A stretch of DNA of 64,000 bases from IMG/VR virus record IMGVR_UViG_3300023720_000218. One strand, 5' to 3'. The notes beneath the pieces were generated by a model. That model searched no databases, was not told where the DNA came from, and saw only the letters and a list, made by a program, of their open reading frames with translations. The DNA is from a virus. Position 1 is the first letter of the stretch. Each line of letters opens with the position of its first letter. A program made the position numbers and the translations under genes. Below are positions 4,247 to 56,710 of this stretch, one piece after another.

Positions 4247-4339
4247 CGTGTTTATTTTGTGTTTATGTTGAATAAAAAAAGAGTCAGACAATGCTTTTTG
4301 CATCAATCTGACTCTTTGGTCTTATTTTCCATTTAATAG

Positions 4340-4421
4340 TGGGCAGTATTGGACTCGAACCAATGAAGACGAAAGCCAATAGATTTACAGTCTATCCCGT
4401 TTGCCACTTCGGTAACTACCC
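4340..4421 (-). tRNA. tRNA-Tyr (anticodon GTA), type II with long variable arm
   Basis: RC gives GGGTAGT…GACTGTAAATC…GGTTCGAGTCC…ACTGCCCA. There is a 7-bp acceptor stem, an anticodon loop CTGTAAA and a T-arm ATTGG/TTCGAGT/CCAAT. Confidence 0.75.
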
Positions 4422-4427
4422 GTTTTG

Positions 4428-4512
4428 CGGAAGCAGAAGGATTCAAACCTCCGAAGCCTTTCAGCTTGCCTCTTTAGCAAAGAGGTGGTATCGTTCACTC
4501 ACCCATACTTCC
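4428..4512 (-). tRNA. tRNA-Ser (anticodon GCT), type II
   Basis: RC gives GGAAGTA…CCTCT TTGCTAA AGAGG…GGTTTGAATCC…TGCTTCCG. It has a long variable arm and a perfect acceptor stem. Confidence 0.75.
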
Positions 4513-4585
4513 AATATGCGACCTACAAGATGTCTCGGTGAAACCACCGCATTTCCCTTGTATTTCGGACGTTATTCATTCTGTG

Positions 4586-4657
4586 TAGCGTATCAGAGAA
4601 TCGAACTCTGGTTTCCACCGTGAAAAGGTGACGACCTAACCGTTAGTCGAATACGCC
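4586..4657 (-). tRNA. tRNA-Glu (anticodon TTC)
   Basis: RC gives GGCGTAT…TCACC TTTTCAC GGTGG…CAGAG TTCGATT CTCTG ATACGCT A. The 5' end is uncertain by ±1 nt (G1-U72 wobble). Confidence 0.6.
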
Positions 4658-4662
4658 ATTTG

Positions 4663-4733
4663 TTGAGATACAAGGATTTGAACCTTGAATAGCAGAACCA
4701 AAATCTGCTGTGTTGCCATTACACCATATCTCA
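4663..4733 (-). tRNA. tRNA-Gln (anticodon TTG)
   Basis: RC gives TGAGATA…GCAGA TTTTGGT TCTGC…CAAGG TTCAAAT CCTTG TATCTCA A. The U1-A72 pair is typical of tRNA-Gln. Confidence 0.7.
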
Positions 4734-4738
4734 ATATG

Positions 4739-4811
4739 CGCGAAGAGAAGGACTCGAACCCCCGACAATCAGGTTTGGAATCTGACGTTCTTCCAACTGA
4801 ACTATCTCCGC
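4739..4811 (-). tRNA. tRNA-Trp (anticodon CCA)
   Basis: RC gives GCGGAGA TA GTTC AGTTGGAA GAAC G TCAGA TTCCAAA CCTGA…GGGGG TTCGAGT CCTTC TCTTCGC G. Confidence 0.65.
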
Positions 4812-4818
4812 TTCATTG

Positions 4819-4891
4819 CGCCCGGTGATAGAATCGAACTACCGACCTTTACATTAACAGTGTATTGCTCTACCAATTGAGCTAACCGGAC
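4819..4891 (-). tRNA. tRNA-Asn (anticodon GTT)
   Basis: RC gives GTCCGGT TA GCTC AATTGGTA GAGC A ATACA CTGTTAA TGTAA AGGTC GGTAG TTCGATT CTATC ACCGGGC G. Confidence 0.75.
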
Positions 4892-4897
4892 AATATA

Positions 4898-4965
4898 CCT
4901 ATACTCACCTAACCTGCGATACCCCATTTCAGCGTACCTGTGGGAATTGAACCACACCGTATAGG
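4898..4965. other. tRNA-like element with a perfect 7-bp terminal stem (CCTATAC/GTATAGG) and a T-arm-like hairpin; probably a degenerate pseudo-tRNA
   Basis: The hairpin TGTGG-GAATTGAA-CCACA (read on the minus strand as TTCAATTC) sits at the wrong end for a minus-strand tRNA. No consistent D-arm or anticodon arm could be folded in either orientation. Confidence 0.2.
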
Positions 4966-4970
4966 TTTTG

Positions 4971-5043
4971 TGGAAAGAGATGAAATCGAATCACCTTAAC
5001 CGGATTTTCAGTCCGGCGCATACACCACGTCTGCCATCTTTCC
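4971..5043 (-). tRNA. tRNA-Phe (anticodon GAA), atypical 3-bp D-stem
   Basis: RC gives GGAAAGA…CCGGA CTGAAAA TCCGG TTAA GGTGA TTCGATT TCATC TCTTTCC A. It has a perfect acceptor stem and a canonical T-arm. No CCA is encoded. Confidence 0.6.
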
Positions 5044-5108
5044 ATATTCTCCCTTTATCCCCATACGCCACATCGAAGGGAGAAACAATGCGGCAACTCC
5101 AACTATTG

Positions 5109-5181
5109 TTGCGGAGATTCGACTCGAACGAATGACCTTTGGGCTATGATCCCAACGAGCTACCAGCTGCTCCACTCCGCG
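5109..5181 (-). tRNA. initiator tRNA-fMet (anticodon CAT)
   Basis: RC gives CGCGGAG TG GAGC AGCTGGTA GCTC G TTGGG ATCATAG CCCAA AGGTC ATTCG TTCGAGT CGAAT CTCCGCA A. The C1·A72 mismatch and the three consecutive G-C pairs closing the anticodon stem are bacterial initiator hallmarks. Confidence 0.7.
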
Positions 5182-33886: not shown

Positions 33887-34423
33887 ATGGAAAAGTTACG
33901 TCTATTGGTTACAACCAAATGTCCGAACAAATGTCCTATGTGTTGCAACAACTCATGGGATTTTTCAAAATTACCAGTTGTTGAGCACTTTAATTACAAA
34001 GAGATCATGATAACTGGTGGAGAACCACTTTTGTTTCCTGAAAAACTGTCAAATTTGGCCGAAAGTATCAGAACCGTTCAGAAATTGGCCTATGGCAATA
34101 AAGGAAAATTATTTCTATATACGGCACTGGCTGATATGCTTCCCAATTATATCAGATATTTCGATGGAGTTGTTTACACTCCACATTCTGCTAATGATGT
34201 TCATAGTTTATTAAAGGCCAATAATTTTTTGTTGGACTACAAAGATGAACTTATGGAAAGTAAATCTCTTCGACTCAATCTTTTTCCTGATATTAAAAAG
34301 CATATTCCTGACAACACAGACCTTTCGTTATGGAAAGTAAAAGATATGCAATGGATCAAAGATTGCCCGGTTCCGACTGATGAAGAGTTCAAAAGAGTAG
34401 CTGAATTATGGGAGGTGGAATGA
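33887..34423 (+). CDS. radical-SAM activating enzyme (NrdG-like; QueE-like not excluded)
   Basis: CX3CX2C cluster (TTKCPNKCPMCC) and a glycine-rich SAM motif (ITGGEPLLFPE). 178 aa, as for anaerobic RNR activases. Confidence 0.5.
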   Translation: MEKLRLLVTTKCPNKCPMCCNNSWDFSKLPVVEHFNYKEIMITGGEPLLFPEKLSNLAESIRTVQKLAYGNKGKLFLYTALADMLPNYIRYFDGVVYTPHSANDVHSLLKANNFLLDYKDELMESKSLRLNLFPDIKKHIPDNTDLSLWKVKDMQWIKDCPVPTDEEFKRVAELWEVE

Positions 34424-35508
34424 TGAAAGATGTAATTACCCCCCCCCAACATCTCTATCCTTATTGCTGGTCTTTAGAAGATGCTGTTTTTACTAAAGAT
34501 AAAGGAAAGGTGTTTTCTTGTTTTGCATGTGGCGGTGGCTCTACTATGGGTTACAAAATAGCTGGTTACGATGTTATTGGCTGTAATGAGATTGATCCAC
34601 GAATGATGAAATGCTATGAAACAAACCATCATCCCCAGTATAGTTATTTGGAAGATATTCGTGATTTTGTGAGAAGGAAAAATCTTCCCGAAGAATTGTA
34701 CAAATTAGATATATTGGACGGATCACCACCTTGCAGTACATTTAGCATGTCGGGATTACGTGAAGATGCGTGGGGTAAAGAAAAGAAATTCAAGGAAGGT
34801 CAAAAGACACAAGTTTTAGACACGCTCTTTTTTGATTTTATTGCACTTGCCAAACGCTTAAAACCTAAAGTCGTTATTGCTGAAAATGTGAAAGGTCTTC
34901 TTTTAGGGAATGCGATTGATTATGTCAGACGTATATACAAAGACTTTGAGGAAGCTGGTTATTATTGTCAGCATTTTCTTCTTGATGCTTCTAAAATGGG
35001 AGTACCTCAAAAAAGAGAACGTGTATTCTTTATATGTATCAGGCATGATTTGGGAGTCCATTTTCTAAAAGTTTCAGACCTCTTCAATGTTGAACCATAC
35101 ATCGACATGGAATTTAATGAATCGGAAATATATTATGGGGAATATGCGGATTACAAGGGAAAGCCTATTGGCGTAAAAATGAGAAAGTTATTTGAGCAGA
35201 GAGTGGCAGGAGATATTGCTTTGGCAGAGGCCTATAAGAAACAAACTGGAAAACGAGGCTTTTTTAATCAACAATATCTATATGAGAACAAAGTAAGCTA
35301 CACCCTAACAACTCATGCAGACTCAATTATTCCTTTTAAGCAGCCTATATATTTATCACGGTCAGAAGTATGTAATATATCCACATTTCCACAAGATTAT
35401 CATTTCCTCAACCAATCCCCACATTATATCTGTGGAATGAGTGTACCACCCGTTATGATGGCACAAGTAGCCTCACGAGTATGGAAATATTGGTTATCTA
35501 AATTATAA
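34408..35508 (+). CDS. DNA (cytosine-5)-methyltransferase with a C9 tract 10 codons into the ORF
   Basis: Motif I FSCFACGGGSTMGY, motif IV GSPPCSTFS and motif VI ENVKGL. The poly-C at 34439-34447 encodes TPPQ. The likely start is the ATG at 34420, preceded by GGGAGGTGG. Confidence 0.75.
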   Translation: MGGGMMKDVITPPQHLYPYCWSLEDAVFTKDKGKVFSCFACGGGSTMGYKIAGYDVIGCNEIDPRMMKCYETNHHPQYSYLEDIRDFVRRKNLPEELYKLDILDGSPPCSTFSMSGLREDAWGKEKKFKEGQKTQVLDTLFFDFIALAKRLKPKVVIAENVKGLLLGNAIDYVRRIYKDFEEAGYYCQHFLLDASKMGVPQKRERVFFICIRHDLGVHFLKVSDLFNVEPYIDMEFNESEIYYGEYADYKGKPIGVKMRKLFEQRVAGDIALAEAYKKQTGKRGFFNQQYLYENKVSYTLTTHADSIIPFKQPIYLSRSEVCNISTFPQDYHFLNQSPHYICGMSVPPVMMAQVASRVWKYWLSKL

Positions 35509-35933: not shown

Positions 35934-36483
35934 AGAAGCTGTTCTCAACACTCCTAACCTACCACTCTCCGTTATAAGAAAAGAAATCACATTGGCTGGC
36001 GCAAGAGCCATACTGGTAATTGCGATTAACGAGCTTGTGTCTTTTTTCAATGTTGGAAAAACGATGAATGATGTTCAAGTGGCACTTACCGCTGATCTAA
36101 TAATAGACAGATTCTATTATCTCAAATTGGAGGAAATCAAATTATGTTTCCGTAATGCTATGGCTTCCGGTAAGATTTACGATAGACTGGACGGTAATAT
36201 CATTCTCGGCTGGTTAAATGAATACGATGCACAGCGTGATGAAATTGTTTCTTCTCTTTCAATTAATGAAGCCCATGAACAAAATAATAACAGCACTGGA
36301 ATGTTCTACGGAGAATATATCAAACATCTAACTGAAAGATCGGAAAATGGAGATGAAGAGGCCAAAGAATTATTGGAATCCCATCAATCATTCATACAAA
36401 GGATGAAATCAAATGATAAAGAAGCCGCTTTCAAAAAATGGAAAGAAGAATATTATGGAAGAACTAAGAGACAAACTACTTGA
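35800..36483 (+). CDS. hypothetical protein (start uncertain; overlaps the preceding ORF)
   Basis: 227-aa ORF. Confidence 0.3.
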   Translation: MILTSMGNNLIQVNSNLPATEKKALKDLLTLQAEYYKGLHVSSIKEAVLNTPNLPLSVIRKEITLAGARAILVIAINELVSFFNVGKTMNDVQVALTADLIIDRFYYLKLEEIKLCFRNAMASGKIYDRLDGNIILGWLNEYDAQRDEIVSSLSINEAHEQNNNSTGMFYGEYIKHLTERSENGDEEAKELLESHQSFIQRMKSNDKEAAFKKWKEEYYGRTKRQTT

Positions 36484-37165
36484 CTGGGCGAAACAATTTG
36501 AAACACCTGATTTTATAAAAGATGATCCTATATTTTTTCCACATAAGTACAATGATAAAAAGGACATAGAAATCAGTGCTTTTCTTACTTCATGGATAGC
36601 TTTCGGGAATCGCAAACTGATAATGCAGCAAGCAGAAATTTTGGATAATCTAATGGGTAATTCTCCTTATGCCTTCATTATGAACAAAGTATGGGAACAA
36701 TACAAAGAAAATACAAATACCTTCTACCGTATGTTCACCTACCATGACTTCTTCTGCATTTGCCAGCGGTTGTACAACATATATCAGGAATGGGATGATT
36801 TGGAAGTATTTTATGAGGGTTACAACAATGTTATCCGTGAAATACAAACAGATTTTGGTGGCGTAAAAGGTATTCCAAAATTGGAGCGTGATTCTCCATG
36901 CAAGCGTATTTGTCTGTTTCTACGGTGGGTAGTACGAAAATCGCCGGTGGATTTAGGTATTTGGAATATTATTCACCCGACAGAATTATACATACCATTG
37001 GATGCACATGTTGCAAAAATGGCACACCAGCTTGGGATAACAACACGCAAAACAGAGGACTGGAAAATGGTTCAACAAGTAACCAATTACATGAAAACAA
37101 TTTTCCCGGATGATCCGTGCCGGGGAGATTTTGCATTATTCGGATATAGTATTAACAATAAATAA
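36413..37165 (+). CDS. hypothetical protein
   Basis: 250-aa ORF. No motif recognised with confidence. Confidence 0.35.
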   Translation: MIKKPLSKNGKKNIMEELRDKLLDWAKQFETPDFIKDDPIFFPHKYNDKKDIEISAFLTSWIAFGNRKLIMQQAEILDNLMGNSPYAFIMNKVWEQYKENTNTFYRMFTYHDFFCICQRLYNIYQEWDDLEVFYEGYNNVIREIQTDFGGVKGIPKLERDSPCKRICLFLRWVVRKSPVDLGIWNIIHPTELYIPLDAHVAKMAHQLGITTRKTEDWKMVQQVTNYMKTIFPDDPCRGDFALFGYSINNK

Positions 37166-37173
37166 TTTACATT

Positions 37174-37758
37174 ATGTCAGAACTTAAAATCACACAAGAA
37201 AAGGTAACAGCCGCTTTTAGTGAAGCAAACGACTGTCCTAAAGCAATTAGTATTCTAACAGCCCTATTCGGAAAGCAAAAGCCGGATTATACAGATTATC
37301 ACAATATTAAAACCTACGAAGATGCTTGTGAAGCAATAGGTGTAAAACCTATTGTTCGCCTACTTGTTGAGGATGAAGACGGACACAAAGAAGAAGTGGC
37401 TGATATTGCACACCTCGCCTACATCAAACTATGCACAATTGCTCGTGCATTGAACAACGATCCTGATTTTCCACGATTTACTAAAGATGAATACCGTTAT
37501 ACGCCGTGGTTTTATCTTTATAATCAGAAAGAAATTGATGAAATGGACGAAGAGGATCGTAATCAGCTGGTTCTTTGGGGCGGTGGTGCGTCTGACGGTG
37601 CGTCTTGCGGCCTCGCTTGTGCGCACTCGTGTAACGCTTGGTCGAACCCGACTGCGTATCTCGGCTCTCGCCTTGCTGTAAAATCAAGTGAAATCGCAAT
37701 TTACTTTGGAGAACAATTCAAAGAATTGTGGAAAGACTTTCTGATTGGAAAAAAGTAA
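37174..37758 (+). CDS. remote DGR target protein (C-terminal variable region)
   Basis: C-terminal …LVLWGGGASDGASCGLACAHSCNAWSNPTAYLGSRLA… is encoded by VR2 (37565-37676). VR2 matches the template repeat except at template adenines. Confidence 0.6.
   Translation: MSELKITQEKVTAAFSEANDCPKAISILTALFGKQKPDYTDYHNIKTYEDACEAIGVKPIVRLLVEDEDGHKEEVADIAHLAYIKLCTIARALNNDPDFPRFTKDEYRYTPWFYLYNQKEIDEMDEEDRNQLVLWGGGASDGASCGLACAHSCNAWSNPTAYLGSRLAVKSSEIAIYFGEQFKELWKDFLIGKK
37565..37676 (+). repeat. DGR variable repeat 2 (VR2)
   Basis: Its reverse complement aligns to the TR (53899-54006) over about 110 nt. There are about 17 mismatches at TR-adenine positions and 1 at a non-A position. The 3' end GGCTCTCGCCTTGC is shared with VR1 (IMH-like) and differs from the TR's …GCCATAC. 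Confidence 0.7.
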
Positions 37759-37992: not shown

Positions 37993-38409
37993 ATGGTTAA
38001 TATGAAAATCCTTGACCTGCCATTAAAAGCAAAATGGTATGAAATGATCGAATCCGGAAATAAGAAAGAAGAATACAGAGAGATCAAGAAATACTGGATC
38101 GGAAGATTAGCAAAATGTGGAGGTCGCAATTCCTATGAAAAGACAGGTTTCTATTGTAAGAAAGGTATTTGTTTTTCTTGTATTACACGTGGAAACGGCT
38201 TTCACCCCAAAGAATACACTCATGTTCGCTTCCGTTTTGGCTACACCAAACGGACAATGCTTTTTGAACTTGAATCTATAACCATCGGAGTTGGTAACAC
38301 CAATTGGGGAGCACCGGATAACGAATGTGTATTTATACTTAAACTGGGAAAATGTATCAAAAAAAATGAAAGTAAGGACTCAACAGAATTTCAACCGAAA
38401 AACTCGTGA
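37993..38409 (+). CDS. hypothetical protein (possible ASCH/PUA-like fold)
   Basis: 138 aa. The N-terminal pattern LPLKAKWYEMIESGNKKEEYREI is reminiscent of ASCH domains; this is weak. Confidence 0.25.
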   Translation: MVNMKILDLPLKAKWYEMIESGNKKEEYREIKKYWIGRLAKCGGRNSYEKTGFYCKKGICFSCITRGNGFHPKEYTHVRFRFGYTKRTMLFELESITIGVGNTNWGAPDNECVFILKLGKCIKKNESKDSTEFQPKNS

Positions 38410-38622: not shown

Positions 38623-39472
38623 ATGAAAATATTAGTAAGTTTTTCAGGTGGTAAGGATTCACAAGCATGTTTGATCCAAGCCTTCAAACAATATGGGGGG
38701 GGATTTAATCGCTGTGTTTTGTGACACCGGCTGGGAACACCCTGACACATATAAACATGTGAATGATGTTTGTCTGCAAATGGGAGTAAGACTTATAACT
38801 CTCAAATCAAAATACGATTTTGTGTCTTTGGCAGTTCACAAGAAAAGATTTCCTTCCACGAATGCACGGTTTTGTACCAGTGAACTAAAAATGAAGCCAA
38901 TGATTGATTATGTACTTTCTTTGAAAGAAAGCTGCATTATTATACAAGGTATCAGAGCCGGAGAAAGTACAGCACGTGCGGCAATGGAAGAGGAATGTAT
39001 GTACTTCAAATCGTATTTTCAACCTAATAAGAAAGGAAGAACTGAAAACTACCGAAGTAAGGATGTCAAAGAATGGTGTTCCCAATTTGACGCTTCTGTT
39101 CTAAGACCGATCTTCAAATGGAGTGCACAGCAAGTTATAGATTGCATACTGGATGCAGGGCAGAAACCGAATCCATTGTATTATCGTGGATTCTCACGTG
39201 TTGGATGTTTCCCGTGTATCATGTGTCGGCATAAAGAAATTGAACTTATAGCCAAAAATGATCCTGAAATGTGTCAACGTCTGATTCAAGCAGAGAAAAA
39301 CGTGGGACATTCCTTCTTTCCTCCATCATACATACCTCAAAGATTCTGTAAAAACAAACAATATCCTTATGTAGAGGAAGTTTTGGAGTACGTTAAAGAA
39401 CATACCCCTGATATGTTCGAGCCGGAAAGTGGATATGCCTGCATGAGCCTGTTTCATGGACTATGCGAATAA
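38623..39472 (+). CDS. PAPS-reductase-family / PP-loop ATP pyrophosphatase-like protein, split by a frameshift at a G8 tract
   Basis: The ATG at 38623 gives MKILVSFSGGKDSQACLIQAFKQYGGG… (SGGKDS PP-loop) and stops at 38724. The tract-downstream frame (38693..39472; its N-terminal part up to 38724 overlaps the first frame) continues …DLIAVFCDTGWEHPDTY…. Removing one G from the run at 38695-38702 fuses them into a protein of about 282 aa. Confidence 0.55.
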
Positions 39473-50470: not shown

Positions 50471-51646
50471 TCACTTCCAATCATTATCATTTGAAGCACC
50501 GAACATCAGTCCTCTTCCCAACCAGTCAGAGTTCGGTGACGGATACATAAAATCCACCAACTGCATACAATGGTGCATGGAACCGCCATTCAATGTTTGC
50601 TTTGTTCCATTCGCGTATATCTGAACATTATTATAATTGTCATTTGCATTAACCACGAATATCCTTTGGGTGACGGCAAGACTCAAAAGATAACGGTAGG
50701 TTACATTCGATGTTATTCTAAATATAACCGTATCAACTGGAAAACCCGAAGTTTCACCGTTATAATCGTATCTTGGCGAATAGCAAGGAACTGTATAATA
50801 AGTTTCGTTATCAGAGGAAGTCCCGGAAGTCAAAGGTATATAAGTACCGGTTTTATCAGCACCTTTTGTGTACACATAGGCATAGGAGCCGTAAACTACC
50901 ATAATGCTTCTTTCCCTTGCGCCAAACACGCCTCTACACCATAAGTCAGAAGTGTAGAAACGTAATGACCGGTTATCCTTAGTACCTTGATGATACATAT
51001 CACCATCAAACCACATTCTTCCATCACTTCCAAAGCTGATTCCTCCAACCGCATCACCAGCAGCATTCACGCAATTCAACCTTGTAAAAGAGCCTGATAC
51101 ACCTTTCAATGTACCTTCAAAAGTGCTGTCACCTGAAATAACCGCACCAGCCGCATAGAGTTTCCCTGCTATACTCACCTTATATGGCGCATCAGTCGGT
51201 GTTGTAGCTCCAACCCATAACGGATAGTCACCACCAACAAGACCTGCTGCAACCGTTTTATTATCGCCCTTCATTATCAAAAGCTGATTACCCTGCATGA
51301 ACCGTAGAATAGCATTTTGAGCCATGATAAGCGGAGTGTACACTGGCACCAAAGAATTAAACTTCTGCCAATAAGTTGTATTTGTCACCGGAATGGAATC
51401 ACTGGACGTATGAGTTTTCAGACATTTATACGCATTAAACGTATTAGCACCGGTAGTCACAATTGCAATATCCAAGTACCGGGTACCGGAAGTCAAAGCC
51501 TCGTCATTGCGATACTCTATGCCTTTAGCCCATTCGGATTGCCGGAGAATACAGCCTTGCAGCCCGTTTTTCCCCGGTTCCCCATTAGTACCGTCAATTC
51601 CATTTTTGGCCTTTCTTCGTATTAATATATGCCCTTGCGCCTCCAT
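50471..51646 (-). CDS. tail fibre protein with N-terminal collagen-like Gly-X-Y repeats
   Basis: …KNGIDGTNGEPGKNGLQG… followed by a beta-rich, Gly/Ser/Thr-rich C-terminal domain. 391 aa. Confidence 0.5.
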   Translation of the reverse strand: MEAQGHILIRRKAKNGIDGTNGEPGKNGLQGCILRQSEWAKGIEYRNDEALTSGTRYLDIAIVTTGANTFNAYKCLKTHTSSDSIPVTNTTYWQKFNSLVPVYTPLIMAQNAILRFMQGNQLLIMKGDNKTVAAGLVGGDYPLWVGATTPTDAPYKVSIAGKLYAAGAVISGDSTFEGTLKGVSGSFTRLNCVNAAGDAVGGISFGSDGRMWFDGDMYHQGTKDNRSLRFYTSDLWCRGVFGARERSIMVVYGSYAYVYTKGADKTGTYIPLTSGTSSDNETYYTVPCYSPRYDYNGETSGFPVDTVIFRITSNVTYRYLLSLAVTQRIFVVNANDNYNNVQIYANGTKQTLNGGSMHHCMQLVDFMYPSPNSDWLGRGLMFGASNDNDWK

Positions 51647-51652
51647 ACCGGA

Positions 51653-52048
51653 TTACTTCAATTTTGCTAATACTTCTTTTGCGATCTCCTTAGCCTTGAT
51701 ACGATAACTCTGATAATCAGTGTATTCTTTCAGATATTCGGCACGCTTACCTTCGTCAAGTTCCGAAGCCATATCACGTGCCATTTCCAAGTTGGCGAAA
51801 ATGGCATCACGTTTATTCGCATCATAACGTTCCATGATAATGGCACTTACAATACTGTCATAATCATGTTCCCCTTCAACATCCACGTTTTCACAGACAT
51901 ACTGGTCTTCAACCACCACATCTTCCGAACCGGCCTTTTGAACAGCTTCTCTTCTCTCAAAGTCGAAGTAAATGCGTAGCAACGCACCTTCAACTACAAA
52001 TTCAATACCAGTCGGCAGTTCTCCTACAAGAGTTCCATAACTTTTCAT
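51653..52048 (-). CDS. hypothetical acidic protein
   Basis: 131 aa. It is not Avd-like (acidic, no basic helical bundle pattern). Confidence 0.3.
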   Translation of the reverse strand: MKSYGTLVGELPTGIEFVVEGALLRIYFDFERREAVQKAGSEDVVVEDQYVCENVDVEGEHDYDSIVSAIIMERYDANKRDAIFANLEMARDMASELDEGKRAEYLKEYTDYQSYRIKAKEIAKEVLAKLK

Positions 52049-52069
52049 AAATTACCTCCATTTTTATAA

Positions 52070-53613
52070 TTATTCTTCAAAATAATAAGCACTCTTCCCG
52101 TCACCTAACGAACGCCGCTTGACAATCACATTTTCCACTGGAAAAATCTTCTGACCGTTATTCTCCGCTTCGCGAGCCTGATCCAACACATCTTTCAGAT
52201 TGTAACAGTTCGTTATGAATTTGCTACGTTGTCCGTTCTGTTCAAAAAGAACACAATATCTACCTTCACCTTGCTTTGTCTTCACATTCGTTTCAAAGTC
52301 CACCACTGTTATAGGGACATTGAGAATATCCATCAATCTTGTCTCTTTTACATCGAAGAACTTCTTTCCGTCCTTTGTTCTACCACTCTGTTTGATACCT
52401 TTATCTGCAAAACTCATATCATTATTTGTTATTGTTCTCCATAAATTCTTACAATCTCCCCACTTACACCAGCCCCAGTATGAAGCTCGTATCTCGCGGT
52501 TACGTTTCCGGCTTTTTATTCGTTTCACCTTTCGGGCAAAGTTCTTTTTCATATTTTTACGCATCCGAACATTATCTTTCGTGAAGCAATAGCCCAAAAA
52601 GTTAATCCTTCTTCCTCTTACTACGTTTTCGCTTTCTATGCTTTTTGTTCCCATTTTTTGTTTCTGTTCCTATCGGAGCAATACAACTGTTTGCTTTAAC
52701 TACCAACCCAACTTTTGCACTTTCCCGTTCATACGCACGAATAAGAAACAACGCTTCGGCCTTAGAACGAGCCAGCATAACATTATCATCGCAATATCTA
52801 TGCAGGCATTTGACACGATATTTCTCCTTCATTGTATGATCTATCCGGCTTGCCGCAAAATTCCCGATAGGTTGGCTTGTAAATGCTCCAATCGGAACAC
52901 CTCTTCTTCCGTTCAACTTCATTCTCCAATACGTCAACTAACTCTGTTCCGCTGTCATACGATAAAACAGCTATCTCGATCAATTTAATAAATCGTTCAT
53001 CTTTGAATTTCCTTCTCAATGCAGCAACAATAAGCTCATGAAGAATACTTTGATAGAACTTTTTGAAATCAGTCTTTACGAACCATTTGTATTCCGGGTA
53101 CCGGTGAAGAAAACGTTTCATTCTCCTTACTCCAAAATGTAATCCCTTTCCCTTGATACACGCACTTGTATCATAAATCAAATTTCTATAAACATCTTCT
53201 TCAATCACCCTCATAATTGCATGGTGCAATATACGCCACGGGAAATATTTCTGTTTGACAATATCTCGAACCTTTCCTGCATCACTTTTTACTCTCATTA
53301 CGCTATAATCCGGTGCCGGAAAATCCAATGTCAGGATCATCAACTGCAAAGCTCGGAGGTCTTCTTCCGGGTGTAGATTATGCCGCCTGATAAAGCGGTT
53401 TTTCTTAACCTTCCCATCTTGTGCTTCTTTGTCCGCTTCACGTAAATTATTTATCTCTGCTATACGTTCAAGAATATACCCGGCTCTTTTAGATTTCTTT
53501 CCACCGTTTGCTTCTATCCGTTTATTGTCAGCCTCTATCCTTTCCGCTATAATTCTATCAATTTCATTATGCGATAGACTCTTCCAATCAATATCACTTC
53601 TTCCAATATTCAC
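52070..53613 (-). CDS. DGR-type reverse transcriptase, reading frame interrupted twice in this sequence (three ORF pieces)
   Basis: Piece 1 (53613-52798) has RT motif 2 (FVKTDFKKFYQSI). Piece 2 (52937-52602) has the DGR-specific GVPIGAFTSQPIGNFAAS (I-G-x-x-x-S-Q in place of QGxxxSP) and YCDD. Piece 3 (52654-52070) has INFLGYCF (thumb). The second break sits at an A6 run (T6 at 52654-52659 on the plus strand); one A fewer restores …IAPIGTETKMGTKSIESENVVRGRRINFLGY…. Confidence 0.7.
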
Positions 53614-53898
53614 TGCTGCTTTGTTTTAAAATTTACACCATACTTCCAATTTTGTCTTGTTCAGACTATTTTAATTATTCCGATAACTGCAAGCTGTTTT
53701 TACTTGCTTGAATAATTCGCCCGGAGCTTTCGAGAACCAACCTACTAACACCGCTTGTTGCCTTTCGCAAATTGGGCAACCTTTCCGCATTCTTGATTTT
53801 CTGACATCGTAACCAATTGATTACTACGTTGCAACGATATAAATCCTGCAAGGTCATGGCTCGGAGAACTCGCAGATTACTCTACGATAAATAAGTAT

Positions 53899-54006
53899 GG
53901 CGAGAGCCGATATTCGCATTCGAGTTCGACCAATCGTTATTCGAGTTCGCATAAGCGAGGCCGCAATTCGCACCGTTATTCGCATTACCGCCCCAAAGAA
54001 CCAGCT
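53899..54006 (-). repeat. DGR template repeat (TR)
   Basis: Read on the minus strand, it carries 12 AAY (Asn) codons: …GGC GGT AAT GCG AAT AAC GGT GCG AAT TGC … AAC TCG AAT AAC GAT TGG TCG AAC TCG AAT GCG AAT ATC GGC TCT CGC CAT AC. It is non-coding and lies between the target gene and the RT. Confidence 0.75.
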
Positions 54007-54129
54007 CTTGTTCCCCTCTGCCAACCGTCCACGCCTTTCGGCTTTCGTCCCGTTATCCGTTGCCGTAAAACGAGAAGGTGGACGGATTTTAATTAATTGA
54101 AATTCAAAGAACTAATATTTCAAAATCTA

Positions 54130-55449
54130 TTATGCAGCCATCAAAGATGCACCGCTAACAAATGTTAAATTCCCAAAATACGCAAGGCGAGAGCCGATAG
54201 TCGCAGTCGAGTGCGACCAATCGTTATGCGAGCGCGCATAAGCGAGGCCGCAATACGCACCGTCATACGCATCACCGCCCCAAAGAACCAGCTGCCCAGT
54301 AGTGTTTGCCCATGAATAATCAGCCCAATAAGAAGTGCTGTTTCCACCAATCTTTTTCGGGAAAATATCAAAATGCTCCCCAAGAATTATTTCCTGCACT
54401 TGACCGGAAACTGTCTGCCGGGTAGCTTGTCTGTATTCACCATTTGGATGCGCAGCTAATTCAGCAGTAGTCGGTAAACGGTTTCCTTTGTAAATGAAAA
54501 TTTCCGTTCCACTTTGAGCACTATTGTTGGAACTACCGCAAAATACTCCTTGCAGAAATTCCCACTGCCACCCATAAGGATCTTCTATACCCATCATGTT
54601 CACCCGTGAACAATCCACTCCAGTATTACTTCCATTCACCACAGAAATAGCTATTTTACCCCAATTGTCACCGAGACTCTTTGTTGCGCCAGTTTGCAAT
54701 GCTGCCGCAGCAGCCCACAAGTCTTTACTGGAGCTACCACCCACACCATAACCAAGTTTGGCTTGAATATTGGTATCTCCGTACTGGGACAGCCCCAACA
54801 TCATAATAAGCTTTCTCTGATCGTAATCGGTCAGTCCCCATTCCTTACCGTTCACTTGTGCAGCATTCCAAAATGCGTTGATTGTCTTGCTGCCTGCCGG
54901 TGCAACTCCTGAACGTGAAACAAGTGCGCTACCTGACATGGAGCCTTTGTATGCACCGATACAGTTATACATTCCACCATTTGCCCCACCAATAAACTCA
55001 CCGCCAATAGGTAGCATCGAGAGCCATAAGACTGGTACACCACTCACACTGTCAGTCTGTACACGATAATACAAACGTGGCCCTATCCACATCACATGCC
55101 CTTTGGTTTCATCCACCGCAGTACCATCAGCAAACACCGCACTATTGGTAGGGGACATTTTAGCAGCCCTTCCATCATTCGTTACGAGATAACGGCCACA
55201 ATACAACTTGTATTCTGTCCATGCGGCTGTATTACCTATCACACCATAGTTCGTGCTACTTTGGGTTGATTGTTTGATTGGAATCCCCCAAGCCACCTGC
55301 CTCAACATTTGTTCGTCACCATTATTAATAGCATTCATGAAGTTTTCCACGGTAATGCGTCTGACACTACCACCAACTTCCACCAATACTGTATTGGAAC
55401 GCAGAATGGAGGTCACCAATGTTTCATTTCCTAATCCTTTAGTTGCCAT
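54130..55449 (-). CDS. DGR target: tail-fibre / receptor-binding-like protein with a C-terminal variable region
   Basis: 439-aa ORF in the tail block. The C-terminus …LVLWGGDAYDGAYCGLAYARSHNDWSHSTATIGSRLAYFGNLTFVSGASLMAA is encoded by VR1. Confidence 0.7.
   Translation of the reverse strand: MATKGLGNETLVTSILRSNTVLVEVGGSVRRITVENFMNAINNGDEQMLRQVAWGIPIKQSTQSSTNYGVIGNTAAWTEYKLYCGRYLVTNDGRAAKMSPTNSAVFADGTAVDETKGHVMWIGPRLYYRVQTDSVSGVPVLWLSMLPIGGEFIGGANGGMYNCIGAYKGSMSGSALVSRSGVAPAGSKTINAFWNAAQVNGKEWGLTDYDQRKLIMMLGLSQYGDTNIQAKLGYGVGGSSSKDLWAAAAALQTGATKSLGDNWGKIAISVVNGSNTGVDCSRVNMMGIEDPYGWQWEFLQGVFCGSSNNSAQSGTEIFIYKGNRLPTTAELAAHPNGEYRQATRQTVSGQVQEIILGEHFDIFPKKIGGNSTSYWADYSWANTTGQLVLWGGDAYDGAYCGLAYARSHNDWSHSTATIGSRLAYFGNLTFVSGASLMAA
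54182..54293 (-). repeat. DGR variable repeat 1 (VR1)
   Basis: It matches the TR over about 110 nt with 10 mismatches, all at positions that are A on the TR coding (minus) strand. It ends 17 codons before the stop with the GC-rich GGCTCTCGCCTTGCG (IMH-like). Confidence 0.75.
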
Positions 55450-55469
55450 AATATTATTTTGTTTTTATG

Positions 55470-56492
55470 TTAATTAAAATGACATTCTGCCAAAACATCA
55501 ACATCATATTGAGTCCCGTTTCTGTCAGTTTCCGTTGTTGTTACAGATATAGAATTTGTTGTAGAATGTTTCAAACTCTTCCAGTTTTCCTTATCCATCA
55601 CATCCATAGTCCACGATGCGGAAGTAGGAGTATAAGTTGACCCCGTAGTCATATTTACAATCTTGGCACTTACTGTAACGGGTTGTCCGGTATCAACCTC
55701 TTTGTTGGAAGAAGTTATATAACATACAATTTGAAATTCATCTGCCGTATCAATGATACGTACCCCGGCACGTGCTATCGGTTGTGAAGCACTTGAAGAC
55801 TGATAAACTTCTGCTATGAATAACTGGGTACCGTCCACATCACCACGGGTAACAGTTACACTTTTCTGTCCGTTCTTATCAGTCCAAGCCGCCGTGTCCT
55901 TATACCATTTTATATAGTAATCGGTAATGGCATTGGCACCGGCATACAGCTTGGTAGTCAGAGTACAACTTGTTACTTTGCTTGTTAACTGTTCGGTACT
56001 TGCAAGAATAGCAAGATAGTAAGAGCTGGCTCCCATATTCTGAATGGCAATAGGCAGTTCCCCGGTCAAATTATACTCAACACCTGCCGTAGAAGCGACA
56101 CATGAATAAGTCAATGTATCTCCTGCAATATTCGTTTTGCTTGCCAAGTTTCCGACAATTTTAATGGCACCGGTACTGGTATTCAAAGAGAATTTGCCCG
56201 TACTGTCTTTTTTCCAACCTCCACTTTCCGCACCGTTAAAATTTAAAGCCACTCCATTGTAAGCCCAACTATGACCAGACAAACTGACCGCCAACCCACG
56301 TGCCGAAGTTACTTTGGGTGTCCGTACCGGCTGATTCGCAGCTATACTCCAATCAGGAGAGACAGCCCCACTTTCTTCATCTACGGCCTGAAACAATGGA
56401 ATGCCATTATTTTCAAAAGTCAGCATCAGGCTGTCATTGGAACGAAGACGTTTAATCGTGATGCTATTTTGGGCACTATAATTTTCTGCCAT
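55470..56492 (-). CDS. hypothetical tail/baseplate protein
   Basis: 340 aa, Thr/Ser/Gly-rich, in the tail block. Confidence 0.35.
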   Translation of the reverse strand: MAENYSAQNSITIKRLRSNDSLMLTFENNGIPLFQAVDEESGAVSPDWSIAANQPVRTPKVTSARGLAVSLSGHSWAYNGVALNFNGAESGGWKKDSTGKFSLNTSTGAIKIVGNLASKTNIAGDTLTYSCVASTAGVEYNLTGELPIAIQNMGASSYYLAILASTEQLTSKVTSCTLTTKLYAGANAITDYYIKWYKDTAAWTDKNGQKSVTVTRGDVDGTQLFIAEVYQSSSASQPIARAGVRIIDTADEFQIVCYITSSNKEVDTGQPVTVSAKIVNMTTGSTYTPTSASWTMDVMDKENWKSLKHSTTNSISVTTTETDRNGTQYDVDVLAECHFN

Positions 56493-56710
56493 ATTCCCAA
56501 CCTCCTTCTGATATAATTTGATTCATGCTTGTATTAGTATAAACGATACCGTCCAACAACAGTATTCTATCTTCCAGTTCTCCATCAAGAGAAGGCAGGC
56601 ACATTACCTCCTTTTCATTCAAGATGATGGATTCTCCCTTTACCAAGTGCCCCAACAACAGAACCCCGGCATCCAAAGCCTTTTCCTTATTTGCTACAAC
56701 ATACCTCATA

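What the first reader, a model, noticed from the sequence alone, without database searches (positions are those of the whole stretch)
52070..55449. Complete diversity-generating retroelement in the tail-fibre block: adenine-mutagenised VR, AAY-rich TR and DGR-type RT
Two ~110-nt repeats differ at 10 positions, and every one is an A on the minus (coding) strand of the intergenic copy (53899-54006). That copy reads as a string of AAT/AAC codons, the codon usage DGR templates use to maximise diversity. The other copy (54182-54293) encodes the last ~37 residues before the C-terminal tail of a 439-aa tail-fibre-like protein. Downstream on the same strand is an ORF with the DGR-RT-specific I-G-x-x-x-S-Q motif and YCDD. 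The VR ends in a GC-rich IMH-like element (GGCTCTCGCCTTGC), and the TR copy differs there (…GCCATAC). Together this is the canonical target-VR / TR / RT architecture for accelerated evolution of a phage receptor-binding protein.
Basis: partly seen in the sequence, partly recalled or inferred. Interest (0 to 1): 0.85.

Follow-up and report, generated by a model that had tools for sequence, protein, structure and literature searches.

The report
Known LoVEphage DGR with three-frame RT
This is a real, active diversity-generating retroelement that rewrites the tip of a tail protein (and a second, distant protein) of the abundant human-gut Bacteroides phage LoVEphage/Quimbyvirus. It has already been published, and the only open point is how its reverse transcriptase, encoded in three overlapping reading frames, is made.

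Summary
TR (53899-54006, minus strand) and VR1 (54186-54293) differ at 10 positions, all adenines in TR (chance about 5e-8). Across 26 related contigs TR is invariant in 24, while VR1 takes 23 different forms, changed almost only at 23 TR adenines.

The window is Bacteroides phage LoVEphage (99.5% to MW660583), the same phage as "Quimbyvirus". Benler et al. 2021 already described this DGR, its RT in three overlapping frames, and its two variable repeats.

My additions:
- The three-frame RT (each junction +1) is conserved in every relative at or above about 42% identity, including cultured Bacteroidales. No conserved slippery site exists.
- A start codon in the outgoing frame is conserved at both junctions (24/26 and 25/26 lineages against a 9% background). 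This favours three separately initiated cistrons over two frameshifts.
- No Avd was found. The RT carries an OB/SSB-like C-terminal domain.
- A roughly 225-nt covarying RNA follows TR and pairs with sequence upstream of TR, as in Bordetella phage BPP-1.

Verdict: confirmed, already known, moderate residual interest.

The parts
54130..55449 (-). Target gene 1: 439-aa tail protein carrying VR1 near its C-terminus
   Evidence: ORF. PHROG phrog_5302 'tail protein' E 1.6e-41. Annotated as tail collar fibre / tail protein, with a structure match to an Mtd_N-domain protein, in MW660583 and PQ571302.
54198..54293 (-). VR1, adenine-mutagenised part
   Evidence: 10 mismatches to TR, all at TR adenines. 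23 distinct versions in 26 contigs, variable at 23 TR-A sites.
54176..54197 (-). IMH-like 3' end of VR1 (TCGGCTCTCGCC TTGCG TATTT)
   Evidence: Invariant in all 26 VR1 copies. Differs from TR at 3 fixed positions: 54185 T, 54183 G, 54181 G.
54025..54085 (-). Hairpin between the target stop codon and TR (CCGTCCAC...GTGGACGG)
   Evidence: Predicted in the MFE and centroid folds. Lineage-specific hairpins ending at the same GGT(A/T)GG motif are seen in diverged loci by eye. Not counted formally.
54010..54023 (-). Upstream-of-TR strand (TGGC..GGGGAAC) that pairs with the spacer RNA
   Evidence: Pairs with GCCA (53859-53856) and GTTCTCC (53869-53863). The two variable positions of the 4-bp helix covary in 13/14 lineages. 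Helix 2 is 7-9 bp with lineage-specific sequences.
53899..54006 (-). Template repeat (TR), non-coding, AAY-rich
   Evidence: Identical in 24 of 26 LoVE-like contigs. 80-96% conserved even where the RT is only 53-80% identical.
53894..53898 (-). IMH* difference (ATACT in TR versus TTGCG / TTGCT in the VRs)
   Evidence: It lies 3' of the proposed template:primer pairing, so it would never be copied.
53673..53898 (-). Conserved structured spacer RNA 3' of TR (Sp-like), with candidate primer strand GGC inside CTCCGGGCG (53726-53718)
   Evidence: 22-lineage alignment A2 with 48 invariant columns. RNAalifold gives 29 pairs, 21 with compensatory changes. No Rfam family matches. Coordinates.
52798..53613 (-). 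RT cistron 1 (frame 0): N-terminal extension, fingers and motif-A Asp (FVKTDFKKF). Homology to RTs ends near 52903; the rest is an out-of-frame tail.
   Evidence: Pfam RVT_1. phrog_1423 E 4.8e-36. Alignment to bRT.
52602..52922 (-). RT cistron 2 (frame +1): ATG 52922-52920, RGVPIGAFTSQ, YCDD, conserved basic tail KKHRKRKRSKRKKD
   Evidence: ATG conserved in 24/26 lineages. Basic tail conserved in this frame: 0.40 identity against 0.16 in the other frame.
52070..52654 (-). RT cistron 3 (frame +2): ATG 52654-52652, GRRINFLGY, thumb, and an OB/SSB-like C-terminal domain (about aa 100-194)
37174..37758 (+). Target gene 2: 194-aa protein in a DNA-modification island, 16 kb from the cassette and on the opposite strand
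   Evidence: phrog_11581. Neighbours: C5 DNA methylase 34408-35508, DUF2400 36413-37165, PAPS-reductase domain 38693-39472.
37565..37677 (+). VR2 (37565-37660 mutagenised) plus the same IMH (TCGGCTCTCGCC TTGCT)
   Evidence: 16 mismatches to TR, 15 at A. 24 distinct versions in 27 contigs, 24 A sites variable.

Best explanation
This is an active diversity-generating retroelement of the temperate Bacteroides/Phocaeicola phage LoVEphage (= Quimbyvirus).

Proposed mechanism:
- An RNA is transcribed that spans about 20 nt upstream of TR, the 108-nt TR, and a roughly 225-nt structured spacer.
- The spacer folds back on the upstream segment and on the last bases of TR (GCC).
- The RT copies TR into cDNA and misincorporates opposite adenines.
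- The cDNA replaces VR1 in the 439-aa tail protein and VR2 in a 194-aa protein of the DNA-modification island. Homing is directed by the shared GC-rich end TCGGCTCTCGCC-TTGC.
- The TR end (…CC-ATAC) lies 3' of the priming site, so TR itself is never overwritten.

RT expression: the RT is encoded in three overlapping reading frames. My preferred reading is three separately initiated cistrons that assemble into one enzyme. These are fingers plus motif A; palm with IGxxxSQ and YCDD plus a basic tail; and thumb plus an OB/SSB-like domain. Benler et al. instead suggested one chain made by two +1 frameshifts.

Shown here: A-specific TR/VR differences, population hypervariability of both VRs with an invariant TR, DGR-type RT, conservation of the three-frame layout and of the start codons, and covarying RNA helices.

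Inferred: the priming site, the homing role of the IMH, subunit assembly, and the role of the OB-like domain as a substitute for the missing Avd.
For: DGR identity and activity:
- 10/10 mismatches at A, P 5e-8.
- VR2 has 15/16 mismatches at A.
- 23 distinct VR1 in 26 contigs, TR invariant in 24.
- 24 distinct VR2 in 27 contigs.
- the best PDB match is bRT 8ub7, E 2.5e-14 over the whole RT core.

Identity with the published element:
- 99.5% to MW660583.
- Benler 2021 text.
- both names map to the B. dorei CP011531.1 prophage.
- Dahlman 2025 cites both papers as sources for LoVEphage.

Three-frame RT is real and selected:
- frames f, f+1, f+2 in nearly every locus at or above about 42% identity. 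The exceptions are a few indel or deletion variants (L005, L040/L047, L115/L117, L166, L170). The loci include Bacteroides acidifaciens DSM 15896, Paramuribaculum intestinale DSM 100749 and Lepagella muris. Relatives at or below 37% identity are single-frame.

Separate cistrons:
- an ATG in the outgoing frame sits 4-8 codons before R-G-V-P-I-G and 9-19 codons before G-R-x-I-D-F-L-G-Y. It lies on incoming codons NAT-G whose amino acid drifts among N/D/Y/H. The three exceptions have TTG or GTG at the same spot.
- the background for an open ATG is 0.09. Observed 24/26 and 25/26. About 5e-11 even if only 10 lineages are independent.
- the last possible incoming codon before the conserved outgoing Arg differs among lineages (AAG, AAA, TGT, AAT, ACG, GAA, CAG), so there is no conserved shift site.
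- the incoming-frame stop is not conserved at junction 2.
- gene callers find ORF3 as a 193-201-aa gene across lineages.
- ORF3 residues 1-11 are disordered.

RNA:
- 21 of 29 pairs are compensatory.
- upstream:spacer duplex.
- BPP-1 architecture for comparison.
Against: Against separate cistrons:
- The catalytic residues would be divided between two chains, with the motif-A Asp in cistron 1 and YCDD in cistron 2 (alignment). A single chain with two loop insertions is structurally simpler.
- The sequence context upstream of the junction ATGs is not as A-rich or GC-poor as real gene starts in this phage. A fraction is 0.39 and 0.33 against 0.46, with out-of-frame ATG controls at 0.30.
- The conserved basic peptide R(K/R)R(Q/K)R(G/S) sits directly before junction 2 and is absent from intact relatives (P0004, P0007). 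It could instead be a nascent-peptide recoding signal.
- In-frame variants exist. P0006 has A5->A4 at junction 1 and reads LRK-RGVPIG. L005 has A6->A8 before the junction-2 ATG. They may be sequencing errors.

Against other parts of the model:
- No expression data of any kind were available.
- The C-type-lectin fold of the targets was not verified here. The single-sequence AF2 model reached only pLDDT 31 and there was no Pfam hit.
- The primer pairing (GCC:GGC) is invariant, so covariation cannot support it.
Confidence: 0.55

Rival explanations
1. The same DGR, but the RT is one polypeptide of about 510 aa made by two programmed +1 ribosomal frameshifts. This is the suggestion of Benler et al. 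2021. The shifts could be stimulated by the purine-rich mRNA and/or the basic nascent peptide, which would keep RT levels very low.
For: - Both junctions need exactly +1 in nearly every lineage.
- Both lie in lineage-specific loop insertions relative to bRT, so a fused chain would fold normally.
- Intact single-chain relatives exist (P0004, P0007, P0067).
- The incoming frame is the better conserved one inside both overlaps (0.40 vs 0.16 and 0.33 vs 0.23).
- A conserved basic motif immediately precedes junction 2.
- At junction 2 of L087 the incoming RQRG and the outgoing GRSID share the same GGGA.
- In-frame variants P0006 and L005 exist.
- A published suggestion exists.
Against: - No conserved shift heptamer. 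The codon before the first outgoing-frame conserved residue is different in almost every lineage. My own AAG-AGG-N idea failed this test.
- No conserved incoming-frame stop or rare codon.
- No homopolymer is conserved, which also excludes transcriptional slippage.
- It does not explain why an ATG, or TTG/GTG, followed by an open frame is kept in the outgoing frame at both junctions (24/26 and 25/26 against a 9% background).
Confidence: 0.3
2. The RT is a decayed pseudogene. The VR diversity is historical or is produced by an RT supplied in trans, for example by a co-resident Hankyphage-type DGR. The DiGReF survey read a Bacteroides 'frameshift mutation' RT this way in 2012.
For: - The RT is interrupted twice.
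- Defective variants circulate. P0001 and P0003 carry large deletions, P0002 a 1-nt deletion that destroys GVPIG, and L115/L117 lack the palm.
- PMC3521204 called such a Bacteroides RT inactivated.
- Bacteroides acidifaciens DSM 15896 also carries a second, unrelated single-frame RT (L213).
Against: - All three pieces stay open and conserved as protein, in the right order and frames, across lineages down to about 42-50% identity. Catalytic motifs are intact and synonymous codon turnover is seen (Arg AGA/CGC/CGA).
- Near-identical genomes (>95% RT identity) almost all carry different VR1 and VR2 sequences, so diversification is recent in exactly the lineage with the three-frame RT.
- TR, spacer RNA and RT co-vary as a unit.
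Confidence: 0.03

Closest known systems
Quimbyvirus / LoVEphage DGR (Benler et al. 2021, Microbiome 9:78, PMC8008677; Van Espen et al. 2021, PMC8525569)
   Same: It is the same element. The window is 99.5% identical to MW660583 over the cassette. [quoted passage not shown] It reports one VR at the C-terminus of a gene after the tail fibre genes. It reports a second VR on the opposite strand among a nuclease, methyltransferases and a tRNA ligase. It finds 22 variable adenine sites among >95% ANI genomes.
   Different: Nothing differs in the element itself.

Not found in the parts of those papers that my term searches returned:
- the direction (+1, +1) and position of the junctions;
- conservation of the layout through a wide Bacteroidales clade;
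- conserved start codons in the outgoing frames;
- absence of Avd;
- the OB/SSB-like C-terminal domain;
- the covarying spacer RNA.
Bordetella phage BPP-1 DGR (Mtd / TR / bRT / Avd)
   Same: - A-specific TR-to-VR transfer.
- VR at the C-terminus of a tail receptor-binding protein.
- A GC-rich IMH with TR-specific differences.
- The RT core aligns end to end with bRT.
- A structured spacer RNA follows TR, a duplex forms between sequence upstream of TR and the spacer, and a short TR-3'-end:spacer pairing exists (compared).
   Different: - No Avd gene in the cassette or in the annotated genome.
- Order target-TR-RT with nothing between VR and TR.
- Spacer of about 225 nt instead of 140 nt.
- The RT has a 41-aa N-terminal extension, two loop insertions that carry the frame changes, and an OB-like C-terminal domain of about 110 aa.
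- Two targets.
Hankyphage DGR (Bacteroides; Benler et al. 2018)
   Same: A temperate Bacteroides/Phocaeicola phage, widespread in human guts, with a tail-protein-targeting DGR. It lysogenises the same species (text).
   Different: An unrelated phage backbone (Hankyphage lacks an integrase). I did not compare its RT here. Benler 2021 contrasts it with Quimbyvirus on exactly two points: the three-frame RT and the second, defence-island target.
Programmed +1 frameshifting (prfB, Ty1 CUU-AGG-C, Ty3)
   Same: Two overlapping frames related by +1, a purine-rich context, and AGG/CGG codons often at the junction.
   Different: No conserved P-site codon, no conserved stop or hungry codon, and no conserved upstream stimulator at fixed spacing. 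This comparison rests on my general knowledge of those sites.

Membership tests
Diversity-generating retroelement (DGR) | TR/VR repeat pair whose differences fall at TR adenines | tested here: met
   VR1 10/10 at A, P 5e-8. VR2 15/16 at A.
Diversity-generating retroelement (DGR) | VR hypervariable and TR invariant among closely related genomes, with variation confined to A positions | tested here: met
   26 contigs: TR identical in 24, 23 distinct VR1, 23 A sites with all four bases, non-A changes are singletons. VR2: 24 distinct versions in 27 contigs.
Diversity-generating retroelement (DGR) | Reverse transcriptase of the DGR clade ((I/L)GxxxSQ motif, YxDD) | tested here: met
   PIGAFTSQ and YCDD are present. 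The best solved relative is Bordetella bRT 8ub7 at E 2.5e-14, against group II RT at 2e-7 and retron-type RTs about 1e-4. No phylogeny was built. NCBIfam gave only far sub-threshold group II/retron/DRT hits and listed no DGR RT family.
Diversity-generating retroelement (DGR) | IMH at the 3' end of VR with a diverged IMH* in TR | tested here: met
   TCGGCTCTCGCC is shared. VR1 and VR2 continue TTGC and TR continues ATAC. The differences are fixed in all 26 + 27 VR copies. The function in homing is not testable here.
Diversity-generating retroelement (DGR) | VR inside a C-type-lectin (or Ig-like) fold at the C-terminus of the target | tested here: inconclusive
   The C-terminal position is met for both targets. 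The fold is not verified: the AF2 single-sequence model reached pLDDT 31, and there was no Pfam or PDB sequence hit. Benler 2021 reports C-type lectin domains for both. The PQ571302 annotation cites an Mtd_N structural match.
Diversity-generating retroelement (DGR) | Accessory protein Avd (present in most but not all DGRs) | tested here: not met
   No Avd-like hit for the neighbouring ORFs in Pfam, NCBIfam or PHROGs. None is annotated in the 107 features of PV4-TP1. A full HMM scan of every ORF in the window was not done.
Diversity-generating retroelement (DGR) | Cis-acting structured RNA flanking TR (spacer with primer strand; upstream:spacer duplex) | tested here: met
   29 consensus pairs, 21 with compensatory changes in 22 lineages. 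The upstream:spacer duplex covaries. The priming nucleotide is not testable here.
Programmed +1 ribosomal frameshift | Conserved shift site (specific P-site/A-site codons) at a fixed position in the overlap | tested here: not met
   The codon preceding the first conserved outgoing-frame residue varies (AAG, AAA, TGT, AAT, ACG, GAA, CAG). At junction 2 the preceding codon also varies.
Programmed +1 ribosomal frameshift | Pause element in the incoming frame (stop or rare codon) or a fixed upstream stimulator | tested here: not met
   The incoming-frame stop at junction 2 is absent in L085/86/90/105/106/112/116/121. A conserved basic peptide precedes junction 2 and could be a stimulator, but this is untested.
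Programmed +1 ribosomal frameshift | Trans-frame protein product | not testable with these tools
   It needs proteomics or a western blot.
Overlapping, separately initiated cistrons (split enzyme) | Start codon followed by an open frame at the head of each downstream piece, conserved across lineages | tested here: met
   ATG in 24/26 and 25/26 lineages against a 0.09 background. The exceptions carry TTG/GTG. The incoming-frame codon is always NAT while its amino acid varies among N/D/Y/H.
Overlapping, separately initiated cistrons (split enzyme) | Initiation-competent sequence context | tested here: inconclusive
   The upstream A fraction is 0.39 / 0.33, lying between real gene starts (0.46) and out-of-frame ATG controls (0.30).
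Overlapping, separately initiated cistrons (split enzyme) | Separate polypeptides that assemble into an active RT | not testable with these tools
   It needs expression and co-purification.

The most novel reading that the evidence does not exclude
In this clade of Bacteroidales phages the DGR reverse transcriptase is a naturally split enzyme made of three separately translated subunits. These are fingers plus motif A; palm plus a basic tail; and thumb plus an OB/SSB-like domain. It works without Avd. To my knowledge this would be the first naturally fragmented reverse transcriptase, but I did not check that against the literature. The split would have arisen in two steps, junction 2 first, as in the P0070 lineage.
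Probability: 0.5. Interest if true: 0.65.

Novelty: already known. Interest (0 to 1): 0.35.

Why it matters
LoVEphage/Quimbyvirus is one of the most frequently detected temperate phages of the human gut. Its DGR diversifies a tail protein and a protein in a counter-defence island, so it bears on host range and phage-host conflict in Bacteroides.

All of that is published. What remains open, and is now directly testable, is how a reverse transcriptase written in three reading frames is produced. If it is three subunits rather than two frameshifts, two things follow. It changes how DGR RTs are annotated, because gene callers and DGR finders currently score such RTs as truncated or inactive. It also offers a natural design for split, Avd-independent DGR RTs for targeted-mutagenesis tools.

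Tried and rejected
- AAG-AGG-N hungry-codon +1 shift site common to both junctions (note 2). Rejected: in diverged lineages the outgoing-frame Arg before Gly is conserved with synonymous codons, and the preceding codon is not conserved.
- Stop-codon-stimulated shift at GAT-TAA. Rejected: the stop is absent in eight lineages.
- Transcriptional slippage. Rejected: no conserved homopolymer.
- Sequencing error. Rejected: the same frames occur in independent isolates, MAGs and viromes.
- Rfam search of the TR region found only a chance-level snoRNA match, E 0.83.
- The MFE fold of the whole 531-nt TR region is not more stable than shuffles, z -1.4. The structure only emerges from covariation.
- AF2 of the 439-aa target without an alignment was useless, pLDDT 31. 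That spent one of the two structure jobs.
- PDB sequence searches with both targets found nothing.
- Pfam at E<=10 found no lectin, DUF1566 or FGE domain. Pfam's only hit on the 439-aa protein is a sub-threshold Glyco_hydro_59_C lectin-domain match at residues 37-133 (26.7 bits against a cut-off of 27).
- NCBIfam listed no DGR RT family for these proteins.
- An exact 34-nt pattern search for VR2 flanks found only 3 contigs. It was replaced by a protein-based search.
- Start-site context analysis was neutral.

Full report
**1. The observation**

The repeat is there. The repeat finder returns a single direct-repeat family in 51500-56500: 53889-54006 and 54176-54293, 118 nt, 89% identical.

- Read on the minus strand, the 108-nt core (TR 54006→53899, VR 54293→54186) has 10 mismatches. 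In all 10 the intergenic copy has A.
- With 24 A among 108 bases, the chance that 10 mismatches all fall on A is 5e-8.
- In the reading frame of the 439-aa ORF 54130-55449(-), the intergenic copy reads as ten AAT/AAC codons. All changes hit codon positions 1-2.
- Both copies then share TCGGCTCTCGCC. After it the coding copy has TTGCG and the intergenic copy ATACT.
- The RT lies downstream on the same strand but in three frames: 52798-53613, 52602-52937 (PIGAFTSQ, YCDD) and 52070-52654 (INFLGY).

**2.

A blastn of TR against the whole window finds a third copy at 37565-37672 on the + strand.

- It lies near the C-terminus of a 194-aa ORF (37174-37758).
- It has 16 mismatches, 15 of them at TR adenines, and the same TCGGCTCTCGCC-TTGC end.
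- Its neighbours are a C5 DNA methylase, a DUF2400 protein and a PAPS-reductase-domain protein.

**3. Where the window comes from, and what is published**

The cassette is 99.5% identical to Bacteroides phage LoVEphage MW660583. It is 98.8-99.5% identical to four other phage records that span the cassette, including two phages induced from cultured P. vulgatus and B. intestinalis. A sixth record covers 69% of it at 99.3%. All the annotated records show the same split RT.

- Van Espen et al. 2021 only noted an RT next to the tail collar fibre gene.
- Benler et al. 2021 described the same phage as "Quimbyvirus". Both names map to the B. dorei CP011531.1 prophage at about 95% identity, and Dahlman et al. 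2025 cite both papers for LoVEphage.
- They report two variable repeats. One is in the structural module. The other is distal, on the opposite strand, among a nuclease, methyltransferases and a tRNA ligase.
- They found 22 adenine sites that vary among near-identical genomes.

The finding is therefore confirmed and already known.

**4. Activity**

I repeated the population test.

- In 26 LoVE-like contigs TR is identical in 24. VR1 has 23 distinct sequences.
- 23 TR-adenine positions carry all four bases. The nine non-A changes are singletons, mostly adjacent to adenines.
- The three differences after GGCTCTCGCC are fixed in every VR.
- VR2 behaves the same way: 24 distinct sequences in 27 contigs, with 24 A sites variable.

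These genomes are over 95% identical in the RT yet nearly all differ in VR, so diversification is recent in exactly the lineage that has the three-frame RT.

**5. The RT**

- Joined at the junctions, the RT aligns end to end with Bordetella bRT (8ub7; residues 42-392 against 3-317; E 2.5e-14). That is far better than group II intron or retron-type RTs.
- Both junctions fall in insertions absent from bRT, of 14 and 18 residues.
- Intact single-chain relatives exist (P0004 at 53% identity; P0007/9/10 at 41-44%; P0067/71/74 at about 34%). They carry the same C-terminal domain of about 110 aa.
- tblastn of the joined RT against 47 + 80 viral loci and 78 genome loci shows the pieces in frames f, f+1, f+2 in nearly every relative at or above about 42% identity. 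The exceptions are a few indel or deletion variants (L005, L040/L047, L115/L117, L166, L170).
- These relatives include Bacteroides acidifaciens DSM 15896, Bacteroides sp. GD17, Paramuribaculum intestinale DSM 100749, Lepagella muris and Muribaculaceae isolates.
- All relatives at or below 37% identity are single-frame.
- One lineage (P0070/L153) has only junction 2 split, so the two splits arose separately.

**6. Frameshifts or separate cistrons?**

I first proposed a common AAG-AGG-N +1 site. The diverged lineages refute it.

- At junction 1 the outgoing frame already encodes a conserved (K/R)-R-G-V-P-I-G. Its Arg codon turns over synonymously (AGA/CGC/CGA).
- The last possible incoming codon is different in almost every lineage.
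- At junction 2 the incoming frame encodes a conserved basic motif, KKK·R(K/R)R(Q/K)R(G/S). Mean pairwise identity is 0.40 in that frame against 0.16 for the outgoing frame over the same bases.
- The outgoing frame then encodes the conserved G-R-x-I-D-F/Y-L-G-Y. The incoming stop is not conserved.

So there is no conserved slippery site, no pause codon and no homopolymer.

What is conserved is a start codon.

- An ATG in the outgoing frame, followed by an open frame, lies 4-8 codons before the Arg of R-G-V-P-I-G in 24 of 26 lineages. One lies 9-19 codons before the Gly of G-R-x-I-D in 25 of 26.
- It sits on incoming-frame codons NAT-G whose amino acid drifts among N, D, Y and H. The three exceptions have TTG or GTG at the same place.
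- The background frequency of such an open ATG in the +1 frame elsewhere in these genes is 0.09. The result would be about 5e-11 even with only ten independent lineages.
- Gene callers find ORF3 as a 193-201-aa gene throughout the clade. In the AF2 model its first 11 residues are disordered.

Points against separate cistrons:

- The motif-A Asp and YCDD would lie on different chains.
- The ATG contexts are not clearly start-like.
- The basic peptide could be a recoding signal.
- Two in-frame variants exist: P0006 and L005.

I put three cistrons at about 0.55, two +1 frameshifts at about 0.30, and a dead RT at about 0.03.

**7. Accessory functions**

- No Avd-like protein was found among the cassette neighbours. 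None is annotated in the complete PV4-TP1 genome.
- This is moderate evidence for a nucleic-acid-binding domain that may stand in for Avd.

**8. The RNA**

- Downstream of TR, 22 diverged lineages share a mosaic of invariant blocks: GAGCC·TGACC, GATGTCAGAA, GCGGAAAGG, CAAGCGG·G··AGTAGG, TCTCGAAAGCTCCGGGC and CAAGCAAG. Between them lie stems whose sequences differ but stay complementary.
- RNAalifold predicts 29 pairs, 21 of them with compensatory changes.
- Sequence just upstream of TR (TGGC, GGGGAAC; 54023-54010) pairs with the spacer (GCCA, GTTCTCC; 53869-53856). It covaries in 13/14 lineages, with lineage-specific 7-9-bp helices.
- This mirrors the upstream:Sp "cPRT stop" duplex of BPP-1.
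- The last bases of TR (GCC, 53901-53899) are predicted to pair with an invariant GGC in CTCCGGGCG. That would be the candidate template:primer duplex.
- The TR-specific bases ATAC lie 3' of that pairing. This would explain why they are never transferred to the VRs.
- No Rfam family covers this RNA.

**9. Verdict**

The element is complete and active, but it is not new. It is the published Quimbyvirus/LoVEphage DGR, including the three-frame RT and the second target.

The residual interest lies in the unresolved expression mechanism of the RT. The comparative data here point away from the published frameshift suggestion and towards a split, three-subunit enzyme.

Noticed in passing
window 4339-5181 (-): A cluster of eight tRNA genes (Tyr-GTA, Ser-GCT, Glu-TTC, Gln-TTG, Trp-CCA, Asn-GTT, Phe-GAA, Met-CAT). 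None is a tRNA-Arg. The published phage is said to have nine tRNA genes.
   Followed up: no
proteins P0001, P0002, P0003; loci L115/L117, L040/L047: Defective RT variants circulate in metagenomes. P0001 and P0003 are large in-frame deletions that join cistron 1 directly to the C-terminal domain. P0002 is a 1-nt deletion that replaces GVPIGA by CSNWS (cluster of 23 sequences). L115/L117 have lost the palm piece. L040/L047 have a deletion inside YCDD.
   Followed up: partly
L016 and L023 (TR region; window equivalent 53899-54006): Two contigs have changes in TR itself, at or next to adenine positions. L016 has three A sites changed and L023 has AAT->CGG. This could be TR/VR assembly chimeras or rare VR-to-TR conversion.
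   Followed up: no
window 53638-53643 and 53603-53613 (-): The conserved GTATGG before the RT supplies the ATG start of cistron 1 in most lineages. In the LoVEphage group that ATG is followed by a stop after two codons (ATG GTG TAA). The RT frame can only start at GTG 53613, in another frame.
   Followed up: partly
proteins P0007, P0009, P0010 (intact relatives): Between ERK and RGVTIG these single-chain RTs carry …(K/L)(R/Q)YCRWAS·(D/E)(K/P)P·R…. This resembles the out-of-frame tail of LoVEphage cistron 1 (RCSDWSIYKPTYREF). It may be a relic of a duplicated, frame-shifted segment.
   Followed up: no
window 54025-54085 (-): A strong hairpin lies between the target's stop codon and TR. Diverged lineages have different hairpins ending at the same GGT(A/T)GG motif. 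It could be a terminator of the target gene or the 5' element of the DGR RNA.
   Followed up: partly
L213 (Bacteroides acidifaciens DSM 15896, other contig) and L212-L217: The same bacterial genome that carries the LoVEphage prophage has a second, distantly related (about 26-28% identity) single-frame RT on another contig. The same RT is found in other Bacteroides genomes. It is possibly a Hankyphage-type DGR.
   Followed up: no
window 36413-37165 (+) and 37993-38409 (+): VR2's immediate neighbours are a DUF2400/TIGR02757 protein and an ASCH-domain protein (so annotated in PV4-TP1). Why a hypervariable lectin-type protein sits in a DNA/RNA-modification island is unexplained.
   Followed up: no
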